Shown one piece after another: positions 38,806 to 50,640 of a stretch of 64,000 nt of DNA (position 1 is its first letter; every line of letters starts with the position of its first letter). A program made the position numbers and the translations under genes. The DNA is taken from IMG/VR virus record IMGVR_UViG_3300026076_000001; one strand, given 5' to 3'. The notes under the pieces are model-generated. The model saw nothing but the letters and a program-made list of their open reading frames with translations. It was not told where the DNA came from and did not search any database. The stretch is from a virus.

Positions 38806-41800
38806 TTATGCACAAGTTGGGTTACAATCACCTAAGTATGAATAAAGAATTGGCCAAGGTGCAGGAACCTGGAAGTCCAGTGTTCGTGGTGTAATACCGT
38901 CAGTTACCTTGACTTGTGCTATGCCATCCATACCTATGATAGGTTGTTCAGGATGATTACGATCTCTCAATGGTTTGATAAAGTTACAGAAGTAATCATT
39001 AGATGGTGTAACGCAAGCACCGTTCTGAGTATATGCGAAGTCATATGTGTGATCCTGACAAGGATCAGCAACTGCTGTAAGGTTAATCAAGTCAGTCAAT
39101 GTAAATGGTGACTCAACTAATTCTACCCATAATGTGTACATCTTTTGAGTACCACGTGCAGGGAAGATAGCAGGTTGAATATCATTCTTAATTGAGAAGT
39201 CAACTGGCATATTGATATTGGTGTCACCACGGAAGGGACACTCACGTAAGAGTCCAGTTGCTGTTGCTAGCTGTCCAGTATATGTGCTAAAGTCACCAGT
39301 GTTAACCACTGTAGGACCATTAGCGTGAGTAGGATTATTAAGAGTAAAGATAGTTCTTGTACCACCATCAGTAGTTTCCATATATGGGAACTCATTGATA
39401 ATACGTAACCTCCAAGTAAATGTACCAGCATCAATTGTGTATGATACCTGTACATCCTGTGTCTGGTTATTGGTGACAGTAAAGTTCTGTGCACCCTTAT
39501 AGTAGTCCTGAACCTTCAATGTATTGATATCAATGTATGGTAGAGCACTTAATGGTGCACCAGCAACATCAATAACAAATGAACGTGTAAGGATATTACC
39601 GAAGTAATCACCACAGGTTAATGTGGTATCTACAAATCCAGCATCGTGCTGTAAGTATCCATTAGATACAGTACCAGTCCATCCATTAGAATACTCGTAC
39701 CACCACATACCTAGTTCAGGTGGGTTAGCGATAACACTTATCTCATTAGATAGTGATGAGTATGATCCATTGTAGAGATACAACTGGAATGAATATGGTT
39801 CATTAACACCAGCTGGAATACCATTACAAGGAATGTCAGTGGAACGCATAACGTTACCAGATCCATCCTTAGGTGGTACTAAAGCTGATGGGTTTTGAAT
39901 AGGTACTTCAATAGCATATCCACCGTACATAGTACGAAGTGGGAACTCTTCAGTAGTACTTACATAGTTACCTACATATACACCATTTCCTCCCTCAACT
40001 GGTGAGTAGTCAACAGTGACATCCTCACGAGCATCCACTCTAGATCTATAGTAATTAGATGCTAGTGGAATATAATCAGGATATGTTTCATAACCTGACT
40101 TCCAAGCGAATGACTTAGTACCTGAAGCAGTATCATAAGCAAATGACTTACTGAACCAGATATACTCAATGTTCTGGTCAGTACATACCAACTGTACTGG
40201 GAAACGACCTTGCTTAGGAGACTTACCAGCAGTCAGATAAGGAGTGGTATTTGGATAATGTGTTTCACCACCATACTCAGTATTTGCTGAGAACAAGTTA
40301 GCAGTAATTGTATTAGCACCACTGTACATAGTCAATGCTGGCTGTGCAGGTAGTGTAGGTAAATTAGATACTGTTAACTGTGCAGTGGAACTAACAATAG
40401 CAGTGTAAGTAGTAGTAAAGTCTAAGTGCTGTGATGCAAATGTAGTACCACCAGACTGACCGAACCAAATACTTGCTATACTATATGACTCAGGTATATA
40501 AACTTCATACCAAGCACCTGCCTGACCTGGAGTTCCATAGCTACGTACATTCTGAGTAGATGCACTAGCAGTAGCACCGAGTCTGAACTCTAATGTCTTA
40601 CCAGCCCAAGAAGCATCACTAACATCGAAACGATAGAATGCTCCCTTAGGTACTTCGTATACAGTAGAACCACCAGCATTTATTTGTACCTGATAGTCAT
40701 TACCAACTGCTACAAGGTCAAATGTTAGTCTCCAACGCATCTTACAACGGAAGAATGCAGTAGCAAACTTCCACCATCTGTTCATAACTAGATGAGCAAA
40801 TCCCATCTCACGTCCTGTTACATCCTCATATCTCTCAACGTATGAGTAATGTGTATTCTTATTTTCTACGTTATTTTCAAACCAATCTTCTTCTTCGTAA
40901 CTAACACTAGTTGCAGCAGCTAACTCATTCAAGTTATACCAAGTACTACCACTACCCTTGTCACCATAGATCTGCCAGAATGGTACGTACTCAAACTTAT
41001 CGTTCTCGTATGCACTCTGTGTCATCATCATAGACAATGACTTATAGAACATAGGACGTGAGTACCAGTTGTTGTTACTCCAAGTAACATCATCATTAGG
41101 CTCACCGTGTACCTTGTATACAGTGTTGTAGTCTACATTTTTAGACAATACATCATAAACCATTTCAAGGTCAGATGATGTCGTCGTGATGTTAGTTAGT
41201 TGAATCGTATACTCCTGAGTTTGGCCAGAAATATTTTCTTCGACTGTTAATGTTAGGTCAAGCGTTTCTGTATTAGTTAAGACACCACTGAATACACCAG
41301 TCTCAGTGTCAAATGTTAATCCACTAGTTGTGAATGGTGCAGAAGAACTTATACTATAATCTCTATCAAGAATAGTTTCATTAGCAAATGTTCTTAAGAA
41401 AGATACACCCAACTGTATGTTAACTGTGTCACCAATATTAAATGTTCCTAGAGCACCAGCTGGAGTATACCAAGTGGTTAGTAGATTAATATACGGAGTA
41501 ATAACACCTCTAGTTGTAGATGTAGGTTGATCAGGTGCATTATGATCTGTACCAGTATCTACTGGGAGATTATTGATTAATGTACCCTCACCAGCTCCAG
41601 CTTGTTCTTGTTGCTCAGTCTGGAACCATATCTTATTAGAAACACGATTCTCTGCTTGCCAAGTTTCAATACCATCACCTGCTTGGTGTGTACCAGTAAT
41701 TTTAGCAACCTTGACTAAATTACCACCAGTTTCAGAACTAGTAGCAGTGAATGAAGCAGCATTTGCAGTGATCTGGAAACTATTATTAGCTGAGTCTACA

Positions 41801-44800
41801 TCACTGATTTGATGCCAAGAATGTTGAAGAACATCAAATTCTACACCACCAATATCATATACAAATGATGAACTATCATATGCTGTATCACCAGGGAATA
41901 TAGGATCTGACTTGTACTCATCACCCAAAATATATGGGAATGCAGGATCACCATTGCTATCTTCAGTAATGAAGTATGCATAGGTACCATTAGGATAGTC
42001 AGGAGTTACACAGTAGCGACCATTTCTCTTGTCTAGGTCACCAACAATGATCCTCTCACCCATATTAGCGTGGTTATAGCAGAAGTAGAAGAGTGCTTGT
42101 GGTACATCAGATGGAGGTGTGATCTCTACTGATCTTAGAGTTGCAGTATCAAAGCCAGAAACGTATGTAGCATAATCTACTACAACATTCTCTAACTTAT
42201 AGACTACACCACCAGTGTAAACTGCGTTTGCATCCTGTGCATTCTGTCCACTAACGTGCCAACCCTGTGAAGTACCATCACCATAGATGGAGAAGAGCAG
42301 AGCGTGAGTAGTTAGAGATGCATCAGATAGATTAAAGATATACTTTCTACCTTTTCTAAAGTTGAACGATGGTTTCTCTTGAGTACCATCTAGTCCACCA
42401 CCACTAATGTAGTAGCGATTACCACTACCACTAAGAACAGCAGTAGATACAGAGACTGTAAATGTTGTTTCTATGTTATCGGTTTCATTACCAGCATACT
42501 CAAAGTCCTCAATGAATGACTTATATGGGTATGATACAGTAGAAGGACGATTCTCATATCCATCAGGTATTCTACCTACCAATTTCTCCATATATCCTGG
42601 CTTGACACGGATAACAGTACTACTATCATCCATCTCAGATGAATAACCATAAGGTCCGTAGATAGGATAACCATCAAATGCTATACCTAAGATCTTAGAG
42701 TGTCCATTAGCGTGTCTCTTATAGTCACCCTGTACATTATCATTCATTGCAGCACCAGAGGAATTACCCATCTTTTGATGTGCGTCACAAACATAGTATA
42801 ATGTGGCAGGTGAATCAAGAGGAACTGTAATAGTAACAGATCTTGTGGTAGCTACATCAAATGATGCAACGTATGAAACAGCATCAACTGCAACACCATT
42901 AAGTCTGTATGTTACACCAGCAGTGTATCTAACACCACCTTGATGTATACCATCCTCAGTGCTAGAGAAGTATAATGGATGACCATCACAACTAGAATGA
43001 TCTAAGTTGAATACGTATGTGTTACCTCTAGTAAAGTTCAATGCAGGTGCTTCTTCATTAACACCAGTTAGTGAACTCTGTAAGAAATAACATTGAGTGC
43101 TACCCTGGTTAAAGTATGAGTTACCAGCAGTCTTAGTAGCAACAGTTGTAATGAAATTAATAGTCTGATATCCTAAGTCAAAGTATGTTAAACCAATATA
43201 ATTAGAACCAGCTTGTACAGCAGCAGTTTCATATGCTTCTAGTAACTTACTGGAATTATATCCATAGATGTTAGAAGAATTAGGATAACCACCGTATGAG
43301 TCAGCACCAGTCAAGTTCTCGTTAGTAACATCATTAAATGTCCAACCAGGAGTTGGTCCACTCTCATTACTATAGTGGTACATATACACACCAGTTGTAG
43401 TCATACCAAATGGTTTGACACTACGTAGTGGCTTAGCAGTAGGAGTTTCAGCACCATAATCAGTACCACCTCTCCAGTTAAAGTTTTGATCAAATGCTTG
43501 ATCTACAATACTATTTGGGTTACCAGCTGTGATTGCAATAGATGCTACAGCAGTTGCTTGTACACCACCACCAACGTTCGGTGCAGTAAGAGAAACAACA
43601 GGAGCAGTTGAGTATCCAGAACCACCATCTGTTACATTTAATCCTGAAACATAACCATCAAGAACCGATAGAGTTGCAGATGCTTCAGCACCAGCACCAC
43701 CTCCTCCAGTGAAGCTAACAGTACAAGTAGTGTATCCAATACCAGCTTCATCTACTGTTATGCTAGTAACAACACCAGTCTGTGTACCAATATCACATCC
43801 AGCTGCTGCTGGTTCCTCGAACACTGGGTTAGCAGATGCAGTTTCACTATAATCTAGTGCATCACCATAGTATCTGTCTCCTAAAATGTATGGGAATGCT
43901 GGTTCTCCAGAGGAATCAAATGTTAAGAAGTAAGCATAGGTACCACCTGGATAGTCTGGAGTAATACAGAATCTACCATTTCTACGATCTAGGTGTCCAT
44001 TGTCTGTGAATTCGTAATCATTTACGAATGATCCCATTGGATATGTGTTAGTATTAGGAGCATAACCAACAGGTTCTGTTAATGTAATAGTACCTGTCAT
44101 TGCTTGGTGTGCTTGACAGACGTAGTAGTAAGTACCAGCAGAAGCAGTTGCAGTATTCCACAATATAGTAGCATTATGCTGACCATTGTTAACAACACCA
44201 GCTACTACCTGTGCAGGGTTATAAGGTGCAGGTACATTCTGGATCCAGAAAGGATGAGTGATTGTACTTCCACCGCCACCACCAGCAGCTGAAACTGTTA
44301 TGGTTCCAACCATACTACCGTGGTATTCGCACTGGTAGTAGTAAGTACCAGTAGCACCTGAAGATGGAATAGTCCAAGAAACAGTACCAGCTTCAGTACC
44401 TTGGTTAGTAACATTAGCAATATCGTTACTAGTACCAGTACCAGCAACTGTCTTCAAGTGGAATGGGTGACCAGTAGCAGATACTGTAAAGTTAACTGTA
44501 TCTCCTTCATAAAATTCTAGTGCGGGATCTCCACCACTAATATTACCAGTTCTATCAGAACCAGATAGGGTGTAATCACTGTTACCAGAAGCAGTTACAA
44601 CAATATTATATGTCTGTGGAGTGGATCCACCACCTCCACCTGTGTTATAAGATGCATTAACATTAAATACTAGGTTGTCACCAACATTAGCACTAATAGA
44701 AATATCGGATCCAGAACTATATCCAGTGAAATCGTAATCTAAATTATCATCAGCAGCAACGTTCCAAGTATAAGTCAATGGACTATACTGTGTACCAGTA

Positions 44801-47800
44801 CGTTGAGCTCTCAATGACCAACCTGATCTCATCCTTGCTAAAGTTGATGTAGATCCAGGTTCATCGTATCCAATAGGTCCGTAGATAGGATAACCATCTA
44901 ATGCCCACCCAGCTATCTTCGAGTGATGAGTAGCATCAGCTATATCTTGAGTAGTACAAGATGGTAGTGCAGCAGTATTTGCTAGAGTTGACACAGATGC
45001 AGCAGCACCAAGACCAGAATATAATGAACAATAATAGAATAAGTTCGGTGAATCAGGTTGTACCTGTATGTAAATACCAGTACCAGACTGACTATCACCA
45101 GGAGTACCTTGATATCTAATACCAGTTAGATACTCAGAACCACCTTGAATATGGATACCATCCTGTGAATCAGATATCCTTAATGGGTTACCACTATTAC
45201 TACTATCACTTTGATCGAAGTAGTATGTGTTACCTTCTGTCAACTGAAGGTTAGGTGTCTGTACACCATCAATATAATATCTGTCTCCAGATGCAGTATT
45301 TACAATGGTAACTATCATTGTAGTAGTACTACCCTTCCATAGTTCTGTATAGAACTTACCACTAGTGTAGTAGTATGAACCATCAGATCCTACAGTACCA
45401 TCTCCAAGGTCAGCACCGAAAGCACTAGCATTAAATACTCTATCGAAAGCATAACCATCAGGGCAGTTCTTTCCATTAGGTAGATCAATAGCAGCTCCGT
45501 GATTCATACCACGTATCTGACAACCATTGATTGTAAGACCAGCAAAGAAGAAAGAAGCAGTGAAATCTTCAGTACTTGTATAAGAAACGTTTCTTCCACC
45601 ACGGTATGTAAATGTATGGTTCCAAGACTTTGGTAGAATACTATAAGCGTTATTTGTGTTAGGGAAAGTACCATACAACGCAGGTTGTGGTAGGTTATCA
45701 GCAACAGTTGTTAGTGCATTACTTACAATGTTTAATGATCCAGTTGTAACAGATCCACCACCAGATACGAATGAATTAGCAACATCATATGTCGTTCCTT
45801 GAACTGGAGCACTTGCACTAGCAATAGCAACAGCAGGTGCTACAGTATATCCAGAACCTGGGTTTGTGATAGTAACAGAACTAACACTACCATCAACAAC
45901 AATTGCGGTTGCTGCTGCTCCATTTCCACCACCACCTGTAAAGGTGACTATTGGTGCGTTCAATGGGTTATATCCATTACCACCGTTGGTTACGTTAACT
46001 GTTTCTACACCACCACCAGTTAATGTGATGTTTGCAGTTGCAGTTGCTCCAGCACCATCACCAGTAAGGACTACAGTAGGTGCCTCGGTGTATCCAGAAC
46101 CAGATTGATCAACGTTAATACCTGTAACAGCACCACCAGTTAGTGTGATCTGTGCAGTTGCTTGAGCACCAGCTCCACCACCACCTGAGAAACTAACAAC
46201 AGGAGCTACAGTATATCCTGAACCCTGTTGACTTAGTGTAAGTTGAGAAACGTATCCAGATGTACCAGATTTAGGGAAAACACCATAAAGACCTGGTGCA
46301 GGATGATTATCAGTAACTACGTTAAACAGTCCACCTTCCAAATGATATCCATCAGTAGGTGATCCAGCAGATGTTACCCATACATCCTCAATTATATCTT
46401 GTGCTGGTAAAGCAATAGGAGTACGTATCTGGACTTGTTCACCAACAGAAGGGTTAAATCCAGCAAATTCTGATCCTAAGTTAAATGTAATTACATTACT
46501 TGCTAGTCCAGTAGTAATAGTGGTATTCAGACCATCAAATGTAAGCTCGTCTATGCTATTGTTAGGATATGTTTGTACACTAGCACCACCATACTCATAA
46601 CTTACGGGTGATACATTAAGACTATTCCAAGTACGACTGTAATCCCAATCAAGTGGTCTACGTAACCATTCTTTTGATAACTGTGGGAGTGCTTTACCAC
46701 CTTCATAGGTAGCTCTGTTCTGATACCCCATCTTGGTAGCCCACTGTGCTATAACACCAGCAGTTAAAGGACCAGAGAATGATGTACCATCTATATTTGC
46801 ATAGTAAGAGGAACTAATAGCATTATATGGTGTAGCACTGTTCCAATAGTATTGTGGAACATAAATTGATTCACCAGGAGCACTGGTAGTAATGGTACCG
46901 TAATTAGAGAATGTTGAGAAAGCATTATTATGTGCTGTTGCACCAACACTAATCTTACCGTTGTTACTAGTGTCAGGGATCTCCATATTGTGTAGGTTAT
47001 CCTTAGGACCAGCAGTCCTAACACCTACTAAGTACTTACCTTGATATCCACCGTACGTACCAGCCCAAGTATTATCTGTAAATCCATTACCAGCAGAACG
47101 TACAAAAACTATACCGTACGCCAAGCAGAAGTTCTCATAGTCATCAAACAATGTGTCTCCGTTTGTACCACCCCAAGCATCAAATCCTGGTTCGTTCTTA
47201 GCAACATAAGGATAACCTCTACTAGGAGTAAGAGAACCTAATGAAGCATTAACGATTGCGGGTCGAGCAGATCCTTTATAGTTTGCGTGTGCTGGATCAT
47301 TATGGTTAATAATCGCAAACATACACATAATATATCTGGATGTGAACGTGGTATATTCAGATCCATAGGTATTAAATACCTTCATTGCGAAGATACGTGA
47401 CTTCTTAGATACACCAAAGGTTCTACCAGCAGCTAGAATAGCACACTGAGTACCGTGGCCATCATCATCTTCGTTACTATTTGGAAGACCATTTAATGTA
47501 ATACCAGAGTCATATCCTGGTACCTCATATACACGATAATTGTTTTGCTCATCAGCACCATTAAAGTCACTAATATAGTCTGGATGATATAATTCTGGGT
47601 GTAAATTAGCACCACTAGCATTAACAGGACGTGATGCACCACGAACACCTGAGTCAATAATATAGATATCTGAATTTTCTCCGTCTTCAGTTAGTGAGTA
47701 TAGACCATAACCCAATCCATCAGTAGACTGCGTTAGTCTCTGTAAATGCCACTTACTAAAGATAGTGAACTTGAATGATCTTGTTGTTGAAGGTACCCAC

Positions 47801-48603
47801 GTTCCTGTAATACCCATTGTAGGTGTGGTATCTTCATAAACGTAGAGCTCTAGTGGTGAAGTTGCTGTTAATGCAACACTTACAGACGAACCAGCAGTTC
47901 CTGGAGTACCTACTCTTGTTATACCTGTTGTATACTCTGTTCCACCATTATTTGTACCGTCTGGTGTGGTAGAGAAGCACCATTTATAGTTTAAATTACT
48001 TGAATCTTCTAGATTAATAACAATGGTATAGTTGGGAAGGTTATAGTCTATTGCAGGGGTTTCATATACGCTTCCACCAGACAAGAAAGATAACTTAGGA
48101 CCATATGAACCATTATTAATTACACCAGTGTATCCTAGTGTAGAACCACCTGAGAGATAGGGAACAACATTACCGTAAGAGAAAGGTTTAATTTGTTGGG
48201 TTAATGCATCAGTAGTGTCGCCAGCAGTAGCTACATTAGCAGCAACTTGCTCACGTGTAGTCTCGTTAGGGGATACAGCAGGAGGATTTTCTAAATCAAA
48301 ATCTTCTTCAGCAAGATCTAAAGCATCATAACGCTTGATACCTGCTTCGTTTGCTAGTGCATCGTGGGGAATAACAATCTTCTTATCCCAATGTGCACCT
48401 ATAACTTCTGGAAATTCATCACCTTTAAGTATGGTGAGGAAATTATCATCCCTTGCAGGGAAATCCAAAAATAGTGTTTTTAACCTTTCCAGGTTATGTG
48501 TGTTTGCTAGTGATGTGAAACGTTGCTTTGCACGCTCAATGACAGTAGCGACCTCAATCTCCTTCGAGACTTGGACAATAATTCTGCCTTCCTCTATTTG
48601 CAT
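38806..48603 (-). CDS. Giant (3265 aa) putative virion protein: I9-like propeptide, S8 subtilase, two YHYH-type domains, multiple cupredoxin-like domains
   Basis: IYIIDSG (D about 47654), GHGTQCA (H about 47456), SAGN, GTSFSGP (S about 46781); two HSKIxGxAxDGYPIYGP motifs; four YYxCxxHxxM-type motifs; GxGY repeats. Confidence 0.85.
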   Translation of the reverse strand: MQIEEGRIIVQVSKEIEVATVIERAKQRFTSLANTHNLERLKTLFLDFPARDDNFLTILKGDEFPEVIGAHWDKKIVIPHDALANEAGIKRYDALDLAEEDFDLENPPAVSPNETTREQVAANVATAGDTTDALTQQIKPFSYGNVVPYLSGGSTLGYTGVINNGSYGPKLSFLSGGSVYETPAIDYNLPNYTIVINLEDSSNLNYKWCFSTTPDGTNNGGTEYTTGITRVGTPGTAGSSVSVALTATSPLELYVYEDTTPTMGITGTWVPSTTRSFKFTIFSKWHLQRLTQSTDGLGYGLYSLTEDGENSDIYIIDSGVRGASRPVNASGANLHPELYHPDYISDFNGADEQNNYRVYEVPGYDSGITLNGLPNSNEDDDGHGTQCAILAAGRTFGVSKKSRIFAMKVFNTYGSEYTTFTSRYIMCMFAIINHNDPAHANYKGSARPAIVNASLGSLTPSRGYPYVAKNEPGFDAWGGTNGDTLFDDYENFCLAYGIVFVRSAGNGFTDNTWAGTYGGYQGKYLVGVRTAGPKDNLHNMEIPDTSNNGKISVGATAHNNAFSTFSNYGTITTSAPGESIYVPQYYWNSATPYNAISSSYYANIDGTSFSGPLTAGVIAQWATKMGYQNRATYEGGKALPQLSKEWLRRPLDWDYSRTWNSLNVSPVSYEYGGASVQTYPNNSIDELTFDGLNTTITTGLASNVITFNLGSEFAGFNPSVGEQVQIRTPIALPAQDIIEDVWVTSAGSPTDGYHLEGGLFNVVTDNHPAPGLYGVFPKSGTSGYVSQLTLSQQGSGYTVAPVVSFSGGGGAGAQATAQITLTGGAVTGINVDQSGSGYTEAPTVVLTGDGAGATATANITLTGGGVETVNVTNGGNGYNPLNAPIVTFTGGGGNGAAATAIVVDGSVSSVTITNPGSGYTVAPAVAIASASAPVQGTTYDVANSFVSGGGSVTTGSLNIVSNALTTVADNLPQPALYGTFPNTNNAYSILPKSWNHTFTYRGGRNVSYTSTEDFTASFFFAGLTINGCQIRGMNHGAAIDLPNGKNCPDGYAFDRVFNASAFGADLGDGTVGSDGSYYYTSGKFYTELWKGSTTTMIVTIVNTASGDRYYIDGVQTPNLQLTEGNTYYFDQSDSSNSGNPLRISDSQDGIHIQGGSEYLTGIRYQGTPGDSQSGTGIYIQVQPDSPNLFYYCSLYSGLGAAASVSTLANTAALPSCTTQDIADATHHSKIAGWALDGYPIYGPIGYDEPGSTSTLARMRSGWSLRAQRTGTQYSPLTYTWNVAADDNLDYDFTGYSSGSDISISANVGDNLVFNVNASYNTGGGGGSTPQTYNIVVTASGNSDYTLSGSDRTGNISGGDPALEFYEGDTVNFTVSATGHPFHLKTVAGTGTSNDIANVTNQGTEAGTVSWTIPSSGATGTYYYQCEYHGSMVGTITVSAAGGGGGSTITHPFWIQNVPAPYNPAQVVAGVVNNGQHNATILWNTATASAGTYYYVCQAHQAMTGTITLTEPVGYAPNTNTYPMGSFVNDYEFTDNGHLDRRNGRFCITPDYPGGTYAYFLTFDSSGEPAFPYILGDRYYGDALDYSETASANPVFEEPAAAGCDIGTQTGVVTSITVDEAGIGYTTCTVSFTGGGGAGAEASATLSVLDGYVSGLNVTDGGSGYSTAPVVSLTAPNVGGGVQATAVASIAITAGNPNSIVDQAFDQNFNWRGGTDYGAETPTAKPLRSVKPFGMTTTGVYMYHYSNESGPTPGWTFNDVTNENLTGADSYGGYPNSSNIYGYNSSKLLEAYETAAVQAGSNYIGLTYFDLGYQTINFITTVATKTAGNSYFNQGSTQCYFLQSSLTGVNEEAPALNFTRGNTYVFNLDHSSCDGHPLYFSSTEDGIHQGGVRYTAGVTYRLNGVAVDAVSYVASFDVATTRSVTITVPLDSPATLYYVCDAHQKMGNSSGAAMNDNVQGDYKRHANGHSKILGIAFDGYPIYGPYGYSSEMDDSSTVIRVKPGYMEKLVGRIPDGYENRPSTVSYPYKSFIEDFEYAGNETDNIETTFTVSVSTAVLSGSGNRYYISGGGLDGTQEKPSFNFRKGRKYIFNLSDASLTTHALLFSIYGDGTSQGWHVSGQNAQDANAVYTGGVVYKLENVVVDYATYVSGFDTATLRSVEITPPSDVPQALFYFCYNHANMGERIIVGDLDKRNGRYCVTPDYPNGTYAYFITEDSNGDPAFPYILGDEYKSDPIFPGDTAYDSSSFVYDIGGVEFDVLQHSWHQISDVDSANNSFQITANAASFTATSSETGGNLVKVAKITGTHQAGDGIETWQAENRVSNKIWFQTEQQEQAGAGEGTLINNLPVDTGTDHNAPDQPTSTTRGVITPYINLLTTWYTPAGALGTFNIGDTVNIQLGVSFLRTFANETILDRDYSISSSAPFTTSGLTFDTETGVFSGVLTNTETLDLTLTVEENISGQTQEYTIQLTNITTTSSDLEMVYDVLSKNVDYNTVYKVHGEPNDDVTWSNNNWYSRPMFYKSLSMMMTQSAYENDKFEYVPFWQIYGDKGSGSTWYNLNELAAATSVSYEEEDWFENNVENKNTHYSYVERYEDVTGREMGFAHLVMNRWWKFATAFFRCKMRWRLTFDLVAVGNDYQVQINAGGSTVYEVPKGAFYRFDVSDASWAGKTLEFRLGATASASTQNVRSYGTPGQAGAWYEVYIPESYSIASIWFGQSGGTTFASQHLDFTTTYTAIVSSTAQLTVSNLPTLPAQPALTMYSGANTITANLFSANTEYGGETHYPNTTPYLTAGKSPKQGRFPVQLVCTDQNIEYIWFSKSFAYDTASGTKSFAWKSGYETYPDYIPLASNYYRSRVDAREDVTVDYSPVEGGNGVYVGNYVSTTEEFPLRTMYGGYAIEVPIQNPSALVPPKDGSGNVMRSTDIPCNGIPAGVNEPYSFQLYLYNGSYSSLSNEISVIANPPELGMWWYEYSNGWTGTVSNGYLQHDAGFVDTTLTCGDYFGNILTRSFVIDVAGAPLSALPYIDINTLKVQDYYKGAQNFTVTNNQTQDVQVSYTIDAGTFTWRLRIINEFPYMETTDGGTRTIFTLNNPTHANGPTVVNTGDFSTYTGQLATATGLLRECPFRGDTNINMPVDFSIKNDIQPAIFPARGTQKMYTLWVELVESPFTLTDLINLTAVADPCQDHTYDFAYTQNGACVTPSNDYFCNFIKPLRDRNHPEQPIIGMDGIAQVKVTDGITPRTLDFQVPAPWPILYSYLGDCNPTCA

Positions 48604-48636: not shown

Positions 48637-48643
48637 TATTTAG
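48637..48643 (-). promoter_or_regulatory. Late promoter CTAAATA
   Basis: tatttag on the plus strand, 34 nt upstream of ATG 48603. Confidence 0.65.
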
Positions 48644-49314
48644 TAAGCTTTATAACGCATCAATGAGTGTAACTGTTCATCCAGACTTCTTGTCATACCA
48701 TAATGTTCATCATCAGGATCGGTTGCGTTCGGGTAAAGTTTATTTAATTCCTGTTTTATCTCATAATTATAAGTCGCTATCCGTCTGTCTTCTTGACTCT
48801 GGAACATTGATTTACTCCAAAATACAGCAACATCCCTTACTCCAGATGTTACTTCCTTAACCATATGTTTAGTTCCCGTAGGATAACTAAATGCCATTCC
48901 AGCAGGTAATTTGACTTCAATAGTCTCAGTACCATACTTTAAAACTAGTTCCCCTCCTTCGTATTCATCTGGTGAATTTAAAAATACAGTTGTGCTGTAA
49001 TCAGATCTCACTCCACCTGCCATCATAGGTTGATCACAATGCCAAGCGTAGTGCATACCCTCTGTATACCTAATGAATAAAGCTGTAGTGGTGTTACAAA
49101 CCCACATATGCCACATAGGTATTTCGTGTTTCTGATAATTATCCCAAATTATATTCCAAGCAGCATTTTGATGCTCAACGGACATTTCGATGTTATTCTT
49201 TATTCTCTTATCACCAGCTCCAGTGCGTGCACCATCGTGATAATCAGTGAAGTCGTAAAAGTCTTGTACGTGTTTCAGATTAACATCATTCAAAAGCTCA
49301 TAACGAAAAAACAT
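48640..49314 (-). CDS. PKHD/PiuC-type Fe(II)/2OG hydroxylase
   Basis: YAWHCD, DYSTTVFLNSPDEYEGGELV, HMVKEVTSGVRDVAVFW. Confidence 0.9.
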   Translation of the reverse strand: MFFRYELLNDVNLKHVQDFYDFTDYHDGARTGAGDKRIKNNIEMSVEHQNAAWNIIWDNYQKHEIPMWHMWVCNTTTALFIRYTEGMHYAWHCDQPMMAGGVRSDYSTTVFLNSPDEYEGGELVLKYGTETIEVKLPAGMAFSYPTGTKHMVKEVTSGVRDVAVFWSKSMFQSQEDRRIATYNYEIKQELNKLYPNATDPDDEHYGMTRSLDEQLHSLMRYKAY

Positions 49315-49316
49315 AA

Positions 49317-49994
49317 TTAAGGAACGAAAGAAGGATCTGCGGGATTAACTGGCCAACCAGTAAAATTGGCATATTCATATGGATCTGCCTGTTGTGCAGG
49401 TAGATCTCTCAATCTTTGTCTATAGGTTTTCCAATTATCAAGAGACTTAGCAGCAGCAGGGACACTAGCTAGTGCCATACCAGAAGCAGCTTCCCATACA
49501 TCAGTCAACATAATCCAATCAGTATCCTTGAGGAGATTAGTTCTCATTGCACGCAATGAACCCAAATTCTCTGGAATTTGATTGTCAACAAAATATTTTT
49601 GTTGGTTTGCTTTATCTAACGCTGCTTGTTGTGCAGCATCATACGCTTCTTTGTACTGTGTACGAAGAGGTGATAAAGTTTCATATAAAACCGTTGCTTC
49701 ATCAATTTTTGAGGAATCATTTGTGGTGAGATCTAACTCTCCACGCATATCCAAATTCTCCGCAAGGTACCAAACAGGTTCACCAACAGGATTATCTGCC
49801 TTCCAGTAGTGTAAAACTTTAAGTTCATCTACACCAGCAACGTGAAAAGTTCCGTTGATAGCGGGAAGAACAGTATTAGTCCAATCACTATCAGAGATCT
49901 CAAACCCCTGTTGAGTACCGTCTGGATTTCTACCGCCGATAATCTTTCTGGAAACCCAGAGTATAAAATCAGCTTCCGCAAAATTACGAGCCAT
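49317..49994 (-). CDS. Tail-fibre assembly chaperone-like protein
   Basis: LRAMRTNLLKDTDWIMLTDV...WKTYRQRLRDLPAQ...WP is the phage tail assembly chaperone pattern. Confidence 0.8.
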   Translation of the reverse strand: MARNFAEADFILWVSRKIIGGRNPDGTQQGFEISDSDWTNTVLPAINGTFHVAGVDELKVLHYWKADNPVGEPVWYLAENLDMRGELDLTTNDSSKIDEATVLYETLSPLRTQYKEAYDAAQQAALDKANQQKYFVDNQIPENLGSLRAMRTNLLKDTDWIMLTDVWEAASGMALASVPAAAKSLDNWKTYRQRLRDLPAQQADPYEYANFTGWPVNPADPSFVP

Positions 49995-50640
49995 TTAATA
50001 GATACCATCCTGTCAATATGTATTTATCACCCGATAAAACTAGGTTTCCTTTATGGGTGTGAGTATAACCTGCTGGCCAAATCATTACTGTTCCAGTAGT
50101 AGGTTTAACTCTTCTTTTTTGATCTAAAAACTCAGTTTCACCTCCCTCAAAACCTTCATTAAGGTATATCATCCAAGTTAATACCCTTGGAGAATGAGAC
50201 AAACCCATAGCTTCGTAGTGCCAAGTATGGTATCCACCACCCTCAGGGGTATGCTGGAACTTGATTATACTACTCATCATTGGTTGTGATTGTAGTTGTC
50301 TAAATGTAAAGATATACTGATCAGTACAAGCTCTAAGATACTGTATAGTACATCTCTGTAAGTCGTGACTATTATGATTAATTAAAATCTGTTTATCATA
50401 CCTACCTAAATTTCCATTTTCAAACTGAAACCTACCATCACCAAGAGTCTCATCAATCTGAGGTTGTATGATGTCTGCTTGTTCTTTTAAACTATTATAC
50501 CAATCAATGTACTTATTACATACATTTTCTGGCATAAAATTATCCCAGACTCCAATGAAGTCTGAGAAGTCAACCTTTGTCAGGTTCTTATCCAACATCA
50601 ACTCTAGAGGTTTGATGGGTGGAATCTGATCCTCTGCCAT
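49984..50640 (-). CDS. 2OG-Fe(II) oxygenase (prolyl-4-hydroxylase-like)
   Basis: YHTWHYE, WMIYLNEGFEGGETEF, WPAGYTHTHKG, KYILTGW. Confidence 0.9.
   Translation of the reverse strand: MAEDQIPPIKPLELMLDKNLTKVDFSDFIGVWDNFMPENVCNKYIDWYNSLKEQADIIQPQIDETLGDGRFQFENGNLGRYDKQILINHNSHDLQRCTIQYLRACTDQYIFTFRQLQSQPMMSSIIKFQHTPEGGGYHTWHYEAMGLSHSPRVLTWMIYLNEGFEGGETEFLDQKRRVKPTTGTVMIWPAGYTHTHKGNLVLSGDKYILTGWYLLNGS

What the first reader, a model, noticed from the sequence alone, without database searches (positions are those of the whole stretch)
41900..45700. Blue-copper (cupredoxin-like) domains nested inside YHYH-type domains of a putative virion protein
Seen: four motifs with the type-1 copper ligand order H...C-x2-H-x2-M. 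They are GHPFHL...YYQCEYHGSM (about 44320), THPFWI...YYVCQAHQAM (about 44110), GHPLYF...YYVCDAHQKM (about 42780) and THALLF...YFCYNHANM (about 42070). One copy has lost the ligands (YYCSLYSGL, about 45020). They are inserted between the pieces of two YHYH-type domains: ING/TTG segment, [insert], HSKIxGxAxDGYPIYGP, [insert(s)], LDxRNGRxCxTPDYPxGTYAYF. The YHYH signature itself has lost its histidines (YYYT, YGYN). Established: C-x2-H-x2-4-M plus an upstream His is the plastocyanin/cupredoxin Cu site. Inference: the virion may display several Cu-binding or redox modules, for metal scavenging, for a 'Trojan horse' contact with host Cu/Fe uptake systems, or simply as receptor-binding folds. I know of no functional description of this.
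Basis: partly seen in the sequence, partly recalled or inferred. Interest (0 to 1): 0.75.

Follow-up and report, generated by a model that had tools for sequence, protein, structure and literature searches.

The report
Blue-copper-type domains in phage baseplate protein
A giant tail/baseplate protein of a marine T4-like cyanophage carries copper-protein (cupredoxin) domains spliced into the loops of two other domains; four of the five in this stretch keep a complete blue-copper binding site, which suggests, but does not prove, that these abundant ocean viruses display copper centres on their tails.

Summary
The stretch lies in one 3265-aa ORF (38806-48603, minus strand) in a cyanomyovirus tail-fibre/baseplate gene block.

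AlphaFold models give confident folds for modules B, C, D and E (pLDDT about 76-96). Almost every structural match is a cupredoxin: rusticyanin, laccase domains, amicyanin, plastocyanin.

Alignment with insert-free phage YHYH proteins shows the modules sit in two loops of two YHYH (PF14240) domains. Module B is itself nested inside module C.

Among 18-19 homologues at 65-95% identity, B and E keep all four ligands. C and D lose two or three ligands together in sub-clades. Modules A, D and E belong to a large family with no Pfam model (4610 cluster representatives) in which the four ligand columns are 84-92% conserved.

The same architecture occurs in cultured cyanophages. The S-SM1 homologue (T4-GC399) was detected in virions by mass spectrometry.

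Copper binding itself and ligand geometry are untested, and the function is inferred. I found no published description. The scan flagged this same stretch before, on this genome (e1-5805283, e1-5805284).

The parts
38806..48603 (-). Giant ORF, 3265 aa. Putative baseplate/tail-fibre-associated virion protein.
   Evidence: ORF list and translation. PHROG hits to baseplate wedge subunit and virion structural protein. Neighbours are tail-fibre genes.
43864..45606 (-). YHYH domain 1 (aa 1000-1580), degenerate: YYYT in place of YHYH and the RH histidine lost. Carries modules A and C[B].
   Evidence: PF14240 hit. Alignment with insert-free YHYH proteins.
44992..45327 (-). Module A (aa 1093-1204). D/E-type cupredoxin-like module without copper ligands, inserted at site 1 of YHYH-1.
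   Evidence: A1 profile hit at 5.6e-44. No homologue has the ligand set: 16 of 18 keep only the Cys, two have lost it too. The AF2 model is poor here, pLDDT below 55.
44641..44790 (-). N-terminal half of split module C (aa 1272-1321), followed by a GGGGGS linker.
   Evidence: B-type profile positions 2-50 match aa 1275-1318. In the model this half packs with the C-terminal half into one cupredoxin.
44284..44622 (-). Module B (aa 1328-1440). Complete plastocyanin/amicyanin-like cupredoxin with ligands H1379, C1425, H1428, M1431, nested inside module C.
   Evidence: PF00127 and amicyanin/plastocyanin profile hits. Weak match to plastocyanin 1b3i, with Cys, His and Met aligned. pLDDT 84-95. VIA Z 7-8.3 to cupredoxins over model residues 328-445. 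Ligands kept in 19/19 homologues.
44068..44265 (-). C-terminal half of split module C (aa 1447-1512), with ligands H1450, C1496, H1499, M1502.
   Evidence: B-type profile positions 48-110 match at 7e-16. About 98-100 residues aligned over model span 276-514 to single cupredoxin domains: Z 10.2 at rmsd 2.2 for ascorbate oxidase, Z 9.6 for rusticyanin. Full ligand set kept in 14/19 homologues; Cys and His2 lost together in the other 5.
41854..43506 (-). YHYH domain 2 (aa 1700-2250), degenerate: YGYN in place of YHYH, RHxxGHSK kept. Carries modules D and E.
   Evidence: PF14240 best stretch at aa 1963-2042. Alignment A4.
42754..43167 (-). Module D (aa 1813-1950). Cupredoxin with ligands H1875, C1939, H1942, M1945, at site 1 of YHYH-2.
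   Evidence: pLDDT 81-94. VIA Z 6-6.9 to laccase, FVIII and ascorbate-oxidase cupredoxin domains, and Z 4.9 to stellacyanin. Ligand states in 18 homologues: HCHM 12, HCHQ 1, HSGE 5.
42040..42474 (-). Module E (aa 2044-2188). Cupredoxin with ligands H2100, C2175, H2178, M2181, at site 2 of YHYH-2.
   Evidence: pLDDT 76-96. VIA Z 7.5 to rusticyanin, 6.4 to auracyanin B, 5.4 to plastocyanin. Ligands kept in 18/18 giant homologues and in the 1150-1186-aa one-insert proteins.
47806..48144 (-). Sixth D/E-type module, without ligands (aa 154-266), upstream of the subtilase domain. Lies outside the finding's coordinates.
   Evidence: A1 profile hit at 1.4e-10.

Best explanation
Shown. The stretch encodes two catalytically degenerate YHYH (PF14240) domains of a giant cyanomyovirus baseplate/tail-fibre-region structural protein. 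Two surface loops of each domain serve as insertion sites for cupredoxin domains.

Five modules lie in this stretch:
- A, D and E belong to a large, unnamed, mostly marine family with the signature G-x-TY-x-F ... HP ... DG ... LYYYC-x2-H-x2-MG.
- B and C are plastocyanin/amicyanin-like, and B is nested inside C.
- B, C, D and E keep the full type-1 copper ligand set (His, Cys, His, Met) in the shortest known loop spacing, C-x2-H-x2-M. That this spacing matches amicyanin is from my own knowledge, not a test made here.

Inferred. Each intact module binds one metal ion, most likely copper, in a blue-copper-type site. The metal locks the C-terminal loop and stiffens the module. The modules project from the baseplate periphery, the position of gp10 between gp9 and gp8, as rigid host-surface contact or spacer modules. 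Selection keeps at least one metallated module in each YHYH scaffold. Whether the copper also does redox work is open.
For: Fold:
- The AF2 models give pLDDT 76-96 for B, C, D and E.
- All of the top 50 Foldseek PDB hits listed are cupredoxin proteins for both models (86 and 464 hits at E<=1e-3).
- VIA gives Z up to 10.2 at rmsd 2.2.

Sequence:
- PF00127 scores 27.6 bits against a gathering score of 21.2.
- The amicyanin and plastocyanin TIGRFAM profiles match at 4e-6 and 8e-6.
- hhalign of the D/E-type against the B-type alignment gives probability 91.5% (E 8e-7), with His1 and C-x2-H-x2-M in register.

Ligand placement (DSSP strings): in all four modules His1 lies just before a strand, Cys is the last residue of the seventh strand, and His2 and Met lie in the loop into the last strand.

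Conservation:
- B keeps its ligands in 19/19 homologues and E in 18/18, at 65-95% identity.
- C and D lose two or three ligands together in whole sub-clades, with no partly degraded single-ligand states.
- One homologue has the natural Met-to-Gln axial swap in D.

Family-wide, over 187 modules: His1 92%, Cys 90%, His2 89%, Met 84% plus Gln 7%.

The fold survives without ligands. Module A and the large tandem arrays lack them, and arrays of 4 or more modules keep them in only 20/42 cases, against 77/81 in single-module proteins. Their retention in B and E is therefore not a folding requirement.

Virion location:
- S-SM1 SSM1_104 (T4-GC399) has the same nested architecture with ligands.
- It was detected in virions with 8 peptides. 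The gp9-like connector, which has a C-terminal cupredoxin, was detected with 25 peptides (PMC3037559 Table S8).
Against: - No copper-binding data exist, and the tools gave no coordinates, so convergence of the ligands in 3D was not measured.
- Phage particles assemble in the cytoplasm, where free copper is scarce. Cellular cupredoxins are normally metallated after export. The modules might therefore be empty or hold zinc.
- The same module is shuffled among tail-fibre-like proteins and occurs without ligands in large arrays, so a purely structural role is possible.
- VIA Z scores for D and E (5-7.5) are in the range the tool calls middling.
- The YHYH scaffold and module A were modelled poorly, so the spatial arrangement is unknown.
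Confidence: 0.55

Rival explanations
1. The modules are metal-free, or zinc-holding, beta-sandwich decorations. They act like the Ig-like domains on many phages: spacers or weak adhesins. The ligand motif is then an inherited feature of the domain family with no copper chemistry in the virion.
For: - The same module appears in many cyanophage tail-fibre-like, gp9-connector and giant-virus 'beta-sandwich' proteins.
- Ligand-less copies are tolerated: module A, the N-terminal module, and arrays such as P0006 and P0023.
- D and C lost their ligands in sub-clades without loss of the module.
- Virions assemble in the cytoplasm (general knowledge).
Against: - The ligand columns are among the most conserved in the family.
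- They are invariant in B and E while 52-57% of the other module columns vary.
- Losses are coordinated, which points to a site that works as a unit.
- In the lineages sampled, every YHYH scaffold keeps at least one intact site.
Confidence: 0.25
2. The copper centres are redox-active in the virion. They might pass electrons to or from the host surface or extracellular reductants and so gate baseplate triggering. Alternatively they might feed an oxidative activity that works with the remnant metal site (RHxxGH...D) of the YHYH scaffold to attack the host envelope.
For: - The sites have a complete type-1 ligand set and an amicyanin-like loop, as in electron-transfer proteins.
- The host domain, YHYH, has been predicted to be a tail-associated metal hydrolase (Iyer et al. 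2021, PMC7824862).
- RHxxGHSK and DGYP stay invariant in all forms.
- Several copper sites sit in one protein.
Against: - The His-Cys-His bridge motif of nitrite reductases and multicopper oxidases is absent (sequences).
- The insert-bearing YHYH domains have lost the YHYH histidines.
- No partner or electron donor is known.
- S-PM2 and P-HM2, the phages with light-dependent adsorption, lack the T4-GC399 gene (PMC6628666), so no link to that phenotype is apparent.
Confidence: 0.12
3. The virion uses the modules to scavenge copper or to mimic a host metal-uptake ligand.
For: Only fold-level similarity to the cupredoxin domains of the iron-uptake proteins EfeO and FtrB, at Z 7.7 and 7.4 among many other cupredoxins.
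Against: - No specific similarity to uptake-system ligands.
- No receptor is known.
- A buried type-1 site is not an exchangeable metal store.
- The modules also occur on proximal tail-fibre parts, far from the receptor-binding tips.
Confidence: 0.03

Closest known systems
Single-domain blue copper proteins (plastocyanin/azurin family, PF00127; amicyanin, rusticyanin, auracyanin)
   Same: - Greek-key beta-sandwich fold.
- His...Cys-x2-His-x2-Met ligand set in the canonical positions.
- B and C match the Pfam family above its threshold.
- The loop spacing equals that of amicyanin (from my own knowledge).
   Different: - These are not free, exported electron carriers. They are inserts in a 3265-aa virion protein.
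- They score far below the equivalog cut-offs for plastocyanin and amicyanin.
- D and E belong to a separate sequence family with no Pfam or NCBIfam model.
- One domain is nested inside another.
Cyanophage PetE (plastocyanin auxiliary metabolic gene)
   Same: A cupredoxin encoded by T4-like cyanophages (PMC3037559).
   Different: PetE is a small host-derived photosynthetic electron carrier expressed during infection. The modules here are parts of structural proteins and are not PetE orthologues: TIGR02656 scores 26 bits against a cut-off of 88.
YHYH domain (PF14240), predicted tail-associated Zn hydrolase of phages (Iyer et al. 2021, PMC7824862)
   Same: - Strong Pfam match.
- Located in tail/baseplate proteins.
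- RHxxGHSK, DGYP and NGRYC-TPxYP motifs are kept.
   Different: The name-giving YHYH histidines, and the GGH histidine of insert-free phage forms, are replaced (YYYT, YGYN). Two loops carry whole inserted domains. No published description of such inserts was found.
T4-GC399 'structural protein' and gp9-like connector of cultured cyanomyoviruses (S-SM1 SSM1_104/103, S-ShM2 SShM2_097/096, S-RIM4 QBQ74975.1)
   Same: - The same YHYH-plus-nested-cupredoxin architecture with ligands.
- The same gene neighbourhood (gp7, gp9, this gene, gp8, VrlC).
- Virion presence shown by proteomics for S-SM1.
   Different: - Those proteins have one YHYH domain with one or two inserts, in 1150-1390 aa.
- The window's protein has two YHYH domains, six modules, an N-terminal S8 subtilase and a further 1000 aa.
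- It is only 31-48% identical to them.
Multicopper oxidases and copper nitrite reductases
   Same: Top structural matches; several cupredoxin domains in one chain.
   Different: No His-Cys-His motif and no type-2/type-3 histidine pairs. The domains are nested in loops rather than arranged around a trinuclear centre.

Membership tests
Cupredoxin fold (superfamily) | Greek-key beta-sandwich of 7-8 strands | tested here: met
   - Modules B, C, D and E: AF2 pLDDT 76-96. Foldseek and VIA hits are almost all cupredoxins.
- Module A: the model is poor. It is assigned by sequence homology to D and E (26-32% identity).
Type-1 (blue) copper site | His (N-terminal part) plus Cys, His and Met from the C-terminal loop | tested here: met
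   The set is present in B, C, D and E and absent in A and in the N-terminal module. It is conserved in homologues and across the family.
Type-1 (blue) copper site | The four ligands converge on one point; copper is bound; 600 nm band and small A-parallel EPR signal | not testable with these tools
   The tools return no coordinates and no wet-lab data. Only the positions relative to strands could be checked, and these are canonical.
Pfam PF00127 Copper-bind (plastocyanin/azurin) | Score at or above the gathering threshold of 21.2 bits | tested here: met
   - B and C region: 27.6 bits. Whole protein: 23.7 bits.
- B alone scores 17.9 bits, below threshold.
- A, D and E give no hit, so they are not members by this test.
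Plastocyanin (TIGR02656) / amicyanin (TIGR02657) equivalogs | Score at or above the curated cut-off (87.85 / 110.2 bits) | tested here: not met
   26.3 and 27.1 bits. The modules resemble these proteins but are not orthologues.
YHYH domain PF14240 | Pfam score at or above 25 bits | tested here: met
   132.7 bits in four stretches, split by the inserts. The insert-free L019 form matches in one stretch.
YHYH domain PF14240 | Conserved YHYH histidines (part of the predicted Zn site, PMC7824862) | tested here: not met
   The window has YYYT and YGYN. Insert-free phage forms keep GGH...YHYH. RHxxGHSK is kept in domain 2 and partly in domain 1.
Multicopper oxidase / Cu nitrite reductase | His-Cys-His bridge and type-2/type-3 histidine motifs | tested here: not met
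   The residues next to the ligand Cys are Q/E, V/Q, V/D and F/Y. No HCH motif is present.
Virion structural protein | Detected in purified particles | tested here: inconclusive
   This protein itself has not been tested. The S-SM1 homologue with the same architecture (T4-GC399) was detected with 8 peptides (PMC3037559 Table S8). Gene context and PHROG hits agree.

The most novel reading that the evidence does not exclude
The baseplate of many marine T4-like cyanophages carries working blue-copper redox centres. These would sense or exchange electrons with the host surface, or with extracellular reductants such as superoxide, and so take part in the decision to trigger tail contraction. That would be a redox-gated infection step, and a virion-bound copper pool in the surface ocean.
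Probability: 0.08. Interest if true: 0.9.

Novelty: new variant of a known kind. Interest (0 to 1): 0.68.

Why it matters
T4-like cyanophages are among the most abundant viruses in the ocean, and how their baseplates recognise Prochlorococcus and Synechococcus is largely unknown.

If the sites bind copper, these virions would be, to my knowledge and from the literature searched here, the first phage particles reported with blue-copper centres. Several follow-ups would open:
- a spectroscopic handle (600 nm, EPR) on baseplate proteins;
- a possible metal or redox dependence of infectivity;
- a virion-bound copper pool in copper-poor surface water.

Two results hold whatever the metal does. First, the work defines a large cupredoxin family with no model in Pfam or NCBIfam (4610 cluster representatives at E<=1e-3). 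Second, it documents a rare three-level domain nesting: a cupredoxin inside a cupredoxin inside a YHYH domain.

The question can be tested with cultured phages (S-SM1, S-ShM2, Syn9, Syn19) and with small, easily expressed modules.

Tried and rejected
- **Chance motifs.** Rejected: 0.0045 expected against 4 seen.
- **Near-identical known phage.** None. Megablast of the region and of 25 kb of the window found only short matches of about 70-90 bases.
- **Single-sequence searches of D and E.** Pfam, NCBIfam and PDB sequences gave nothing meaningful. The link to cupredoxins needed profile-profile comparison and structure prediction.
- **The YHYH scaffold.** It was modelled poorly (pLDDT 30-67), and no solved relative exists by sequence. 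Its fold and the geometry of the inserts remain unknown.
- **Module A.** It was not modelled confidently.
- **Whole-genome search.** No genome is held for this window.
- **Genome-collection scan with the D/E profile.** The peptide pattern was narrow and returned only 7 MAG loci, so the cellular range is under-sampled.
- **Link to light-dependent adsorption.** Considered and set aside. S-PM2 and P-HM2 lack T4-GC399.
- **Multicopper-oxidase reading.** Rejected, because there is no HCH motif.
- **Literature.** Searches for cupredoxin or plastocyanin-like domains in phage virions or tail fibres found nothing relevant.


Full report
**Where it is**

The finding lies inside one open reading frame, 38806-48603 on the minus strand, of 3265 aa. 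The frame sits among tail-fibre, tail-collar and short-tail-fibre-like genes. PHROG profiles call it baseplate wedge subunit or virion structural protein. The window has no close nucleotide relative among 50,697 phage records. At protein level the stretch matches 465 records, almost all Synechococcus and Prochlorococcus myoviruses (Kyanoviridae), at 31-48% identity. The window is therefore a new T4-like cyanomyovirus lineage. Ten IMG/VR contigs carry 77-82% identical copies, one more a 98% identical partial copy, and others are 62-71% identical.

**Checking the observation**

From the ORF's composition, 0.0045 C-x2-H-x2-M motifs are expected by chance and four are seen. No other frame of the window has one. 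Pfam reports YHYH (PF14240, 132.7 bits, four stretches) and Copper-bind (PF00127, 23.7 bits against a gathering score of 21.2).

**Anatomy**

I call the modules by letter:
- A: aa 1093-1204.
- C: split into aa 1272-1321 and aa 1447-1512.
- B: aa 1328-1440, lying between the two halves of C and joined by GGGGGS linkers on both sides.
- D: aa 1813-1950.
- E: aa 2044-2188.

The nesting in YHYH domains is shown by alignment. A phage YHYH protein without inserts (L019) matches PF14240 in one stretch. Proteins of 1150-1186 aa have one insert. The window's two domains align to these piece by piece, with the modules as clean insertions.
- Site 1 lies between the YHYH motif and RHxxGHSK.
- Site 2 lies between the RM-x-SGY strand and LD-x2-NGRYC.

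Module E of the window sits just after the 'SFIEDFEY' strand. The equivalent inserts of other phages, and module C, sit just before that strand. Site 2 has therefore been used at two neighbouring points.

**Two module families**

B and C match PF00127. Together they score 27.6 bits; B alone scores 17.9. They also match the amicyanin and plastocyanin TIGRFAM profiles at 4e-6 and 8e-6, far below the equivalog cut-offs. Against Prochlorothrix plastocyanin 1b3i the match is weak (E 0.044), with Cys, His and Met aligned.

A, D and E are 26-45% identical to each other and hit no Pfam, NCBIfam or PDB sequence. A profile-profile comparison of the A/D/E alignment with the B alignment gives 91.5% probability (E 8e-7), with His1 and the C-x2-H-x2-M loop in register.

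**Fold**

AlphaFold2 was run on alignments of 31 and 32 sequences.
- YHYH-2 model: pLDDT 81-94 for D and 76-96 for E.
- YHYH-1 model: pLDDT 78-95 for the C[B] unit.
- The YHYH scaffolds and module A came out below 55-67 and cannot be interpreted.

Foldseek against the PDB found 86 and 464 hits at E<=1e-3. The 50 best listed for each model are all cupredoxin proteins: laccases, CotA, nitrite reductases, factor V/VIII and rusticyanin.

The Foldseek-independent VIA search assigns each module separately.

| Module | Model residues | Best matches |
|---|---|---|
| D | 112-259 | small laccase, Z 6.9; stellacyanin, Z 4.9 |
| E | 343-490 | rusticyanin, Z 7.5 (rmsd 3.5, 116 aligned); auracyanin B, Z 6.4; plastocyanin, Z 5.4 |
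| B | 328-445 | cupredoxins, Z 7-8.3; amicyanin, Z 6.2 |
| C | 276-514 | ascorbate oxidase domain 1, Z 10.2 (rmsd 2.2); rusticyanin, Z 9.6 |

For module C only about 98-100 residues are aligned across a 239-residue span. The aligner skips B and joins the two halves of C into one cupredoxin. The B-type profile agrees: its positions 2-50 match aa 1275-1318 and its positions 48-110 match aa 1446-1509. The 'cupredoxin in cupredoxin in YHYH' nesting is thus supported by sequence and by the model.

**Ligand positions**

In the DSSP strings of both models the four ligands of each intact module lie where type-1 sites have them. His1 comes directly before a strand. Cys is the last residue of the penultimate strand. 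His2 and Met lie in the short loop into the last strand. I could not measure distances, because no coordinates are returned.

**Conservation**

The table gives ligand states among 18-19 distinct giant homologues at 65-95% identity.

| Module | Ligand state (His1, Cys, His2, Met) |
|---|---|
| B | HCHM in 19/19 |
| E | HCHM in 18/18 |
| C | HCHM in 14; HSAM in 5 |
| D | HCHM in 12; HCHQ in 1; HSGE in 5 |
| A | never has the set |

The losses are multi-residue and clade-wise. The single Met-to-Gln change is the natural axial-ligand variant of stellacyanin (from my own knowledge). Only 43-48% of columns in B and E are invariant.

In the more distant cyanophage proteins:
- The one-insert type keeps its site (YYFCYNHANM).
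- The roughly 1380-aa type keeps the site-1 module (IYYYCKYHRYM) and has lost the site-2 ligands.
- The gp9-like connector carries a C-terminal B-type module with LYYQCT-x-H-x2-M.

In every lineage sampled, each YHYH scaffold keeps at least one intact site.

**The wider family**

A profile of A/D/E found 4610 cluster representatives at E<=1e-3, and 1730 at E<=1e-10, among 1.84 billion. In 187 near-complete modules from the best 150 proteins, His1 is 92% conserved, Cys 90%, His2 89%, and Met 84% with Gln a further 7%. These are among the most conserved columns. Single-module proteins keep the site in 77/81 cases. Arrays of four or more modules keep it in 20/42, and some giant arrays have none. 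The fold therefore does not need the ligands, which argues that their retention reflects selection on metal binding.

The members looked up are unnamed proteins from metagenomes, plus one uncultured Euryarchaeota giant protein. A few MAGs of Planctomycetota, SAR324, Verrucomicrobiales and others also carry the module. In the viral structure library the same module appears in several kinds of protein, none named as a cupredoxin:
- cyanophage tail-fibre-like proteins;
- gp9 connectors;
- YHYH proteins;
- an S8 peptidase protein;
- 'beta-sandwich proteins' of giant viruses.

**Virion location**

In S-ShM2 and S-SM1 the homologous gene (T4-GC399) lies between the gp9-like connector and gp8, roughly where T4 has gp10 (T4 gene order from my own knowledge). 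It has the nested architecture with ligands. Table S8 of Sullivan et al. 2010 (PMC3037559) lists T4-GC399 as detected in purified S-SM1 virions with 8 peptides, and gp9 (T4-GC398) with 25 peptides. This makes a virion location likely for the window's protein, though it is not shown for it.

**The YHYH scaffold**

Iyer et al. 2021 (PMC7824862) predicted YHYH to be a tail-associated Zn hydrolase with three conserved His and one Asp. A 2026 preprint also predicts a three-His zinc site. Insert-free phage forms keep GGH...YHYH. All insert-bearing forms, including both domains here, have replaced those histidines. RHxxGHSK, DGYP and NGRYC-TPxYP stay invariant, except that domain 1 has lost the RH histidine. 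The scaffolds are probably inactive as hydrolases and serve as platforms.

**Interpretation**

- Shown: the architecture, the fold, the ligand set and its conservation, and virion presence of homologues.
- Inferred: that the sites bind copper (my estimate is about 60%), and that the modules act as metal-stiffened contact or spacer modules at the baseplate periphery.
- Rivals: metal-free decoration (0.25), a true redox role (0.12), and copper scavenging or 'Trojan horse' (0.03).
- Against copper: virions assemble in the cytoplasm, and no data exist.
- Against a link with light-dependent adsorption: S-PM2 and P-HM2, the phages that show it (PMC6628666), lack T4-GC399.

**Novelty**

Searches of the paper library for cupredoxin or plastocyanin-like domains in phage virions, tail fibres or cyanophage structural proteins found nothing relevant. 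Database names are 'hypothetical', 'baseplate wedge subunit' or 'YHYH domain-containing'. The parts (cupredoxin, YHYH) are known. The new elements are the context, the unnamed family and the triple nesting. I class it as a new variant of a known kind.

Earlier notes of this scan flagged the same stretch (e1-5805283, e1-5805284) and the N-terminal subtilase (e1-5805282). I had recorded the nesting idea before reading them, and I tested it here.

Noticed in passing
window 46738-47499 (-), aa 369-622 of the same ORF: The N-terminal region is a subtilase (Peptidase_S8, PF00082, 71.5 bits). A protease fused to a giant structural protein might process it. An ACG-2014e 'Peptidase S8/S53 domain-containing protein' also carries the cupredoxin-like module.
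   Followed up: partly
window 47806-48144 (-), aa 154-266: A sixth D/E-type module, without copper ligands, lies before the protease domain (profile hit 1.4e-10). A possible seventh remnant lies at aa 2621-2699 (window 40507-40743; weak, i-E 0.0017).
   Followed up: partly
window 48640-49314 (-) and 49984-50640 (-): Two 2OG-Fe(II) oxygenase genes (phrog_61) flank a tail-fibre-assembly-like gene (49317-49994) directly upstream of the giant ORF. They might modify structural proteins.
   Followed up: no
window 45799-46266 (-) and 43534-43806 (-), aa 780-935 and 1600-1690: Glycine-rich tandem repeats of about 45 aa (G-x-GYT ... GGGG-x-GA-x-A) separate the protease, YHYH-1 and YHYH-2. The aa 780-935 set matches virion-structural PHROGs (phrog_701, 460, 19630); the aa 1600-1690 set was seen by eye only.
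   Followed up: no
L012-L097 (IMG/VR loci), e.g. L012:1227-2477, and L099:1127-2350 (S-SM1 gp9): The gp9-like 'baseplate wedge tail fiber connector' of many cyanomyoviruses has a T4_gp9_10_N domain and ends in a B-type cupredoxin with LYYQCT-x-H-x2-M. It is an abundant virion protein in S-SM1 (25 peptides).
   Followed up: partly
L030 (IMGVR_UViG_3300032182_000650), module D; also P0050, P0062, P0080, P0082: Natural Met-to-Gln change at the axial ligand position (C-x2-H-x2-Q), as in stellacyanin. About 7% of family members have it.
   Followed up: partly
L044-L097, ~1380-aa proteins (S-RIM4/S-SM1 type), alignment A4 columns 150-300: In this type the site-1 insert is larger. An extra domain of about 100 aa ('FTWNIKVEF...') comes before the cupredoxin. 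The site-2 module has lost Cys and His (LYTFSYS...).
   Followed up: no
BFVD hits A0A481Z6J5, A0A481YY19, A0A481YWX9: 'Beta-sandwich proteins' of Pithovirus-like and Marseillevirus-like metagenomic giant viruses match the D/E-type module (TM 0.71 on the target, 24% identity). The family therefore reaches eukaryotic giant viruses.
   Followed up: no
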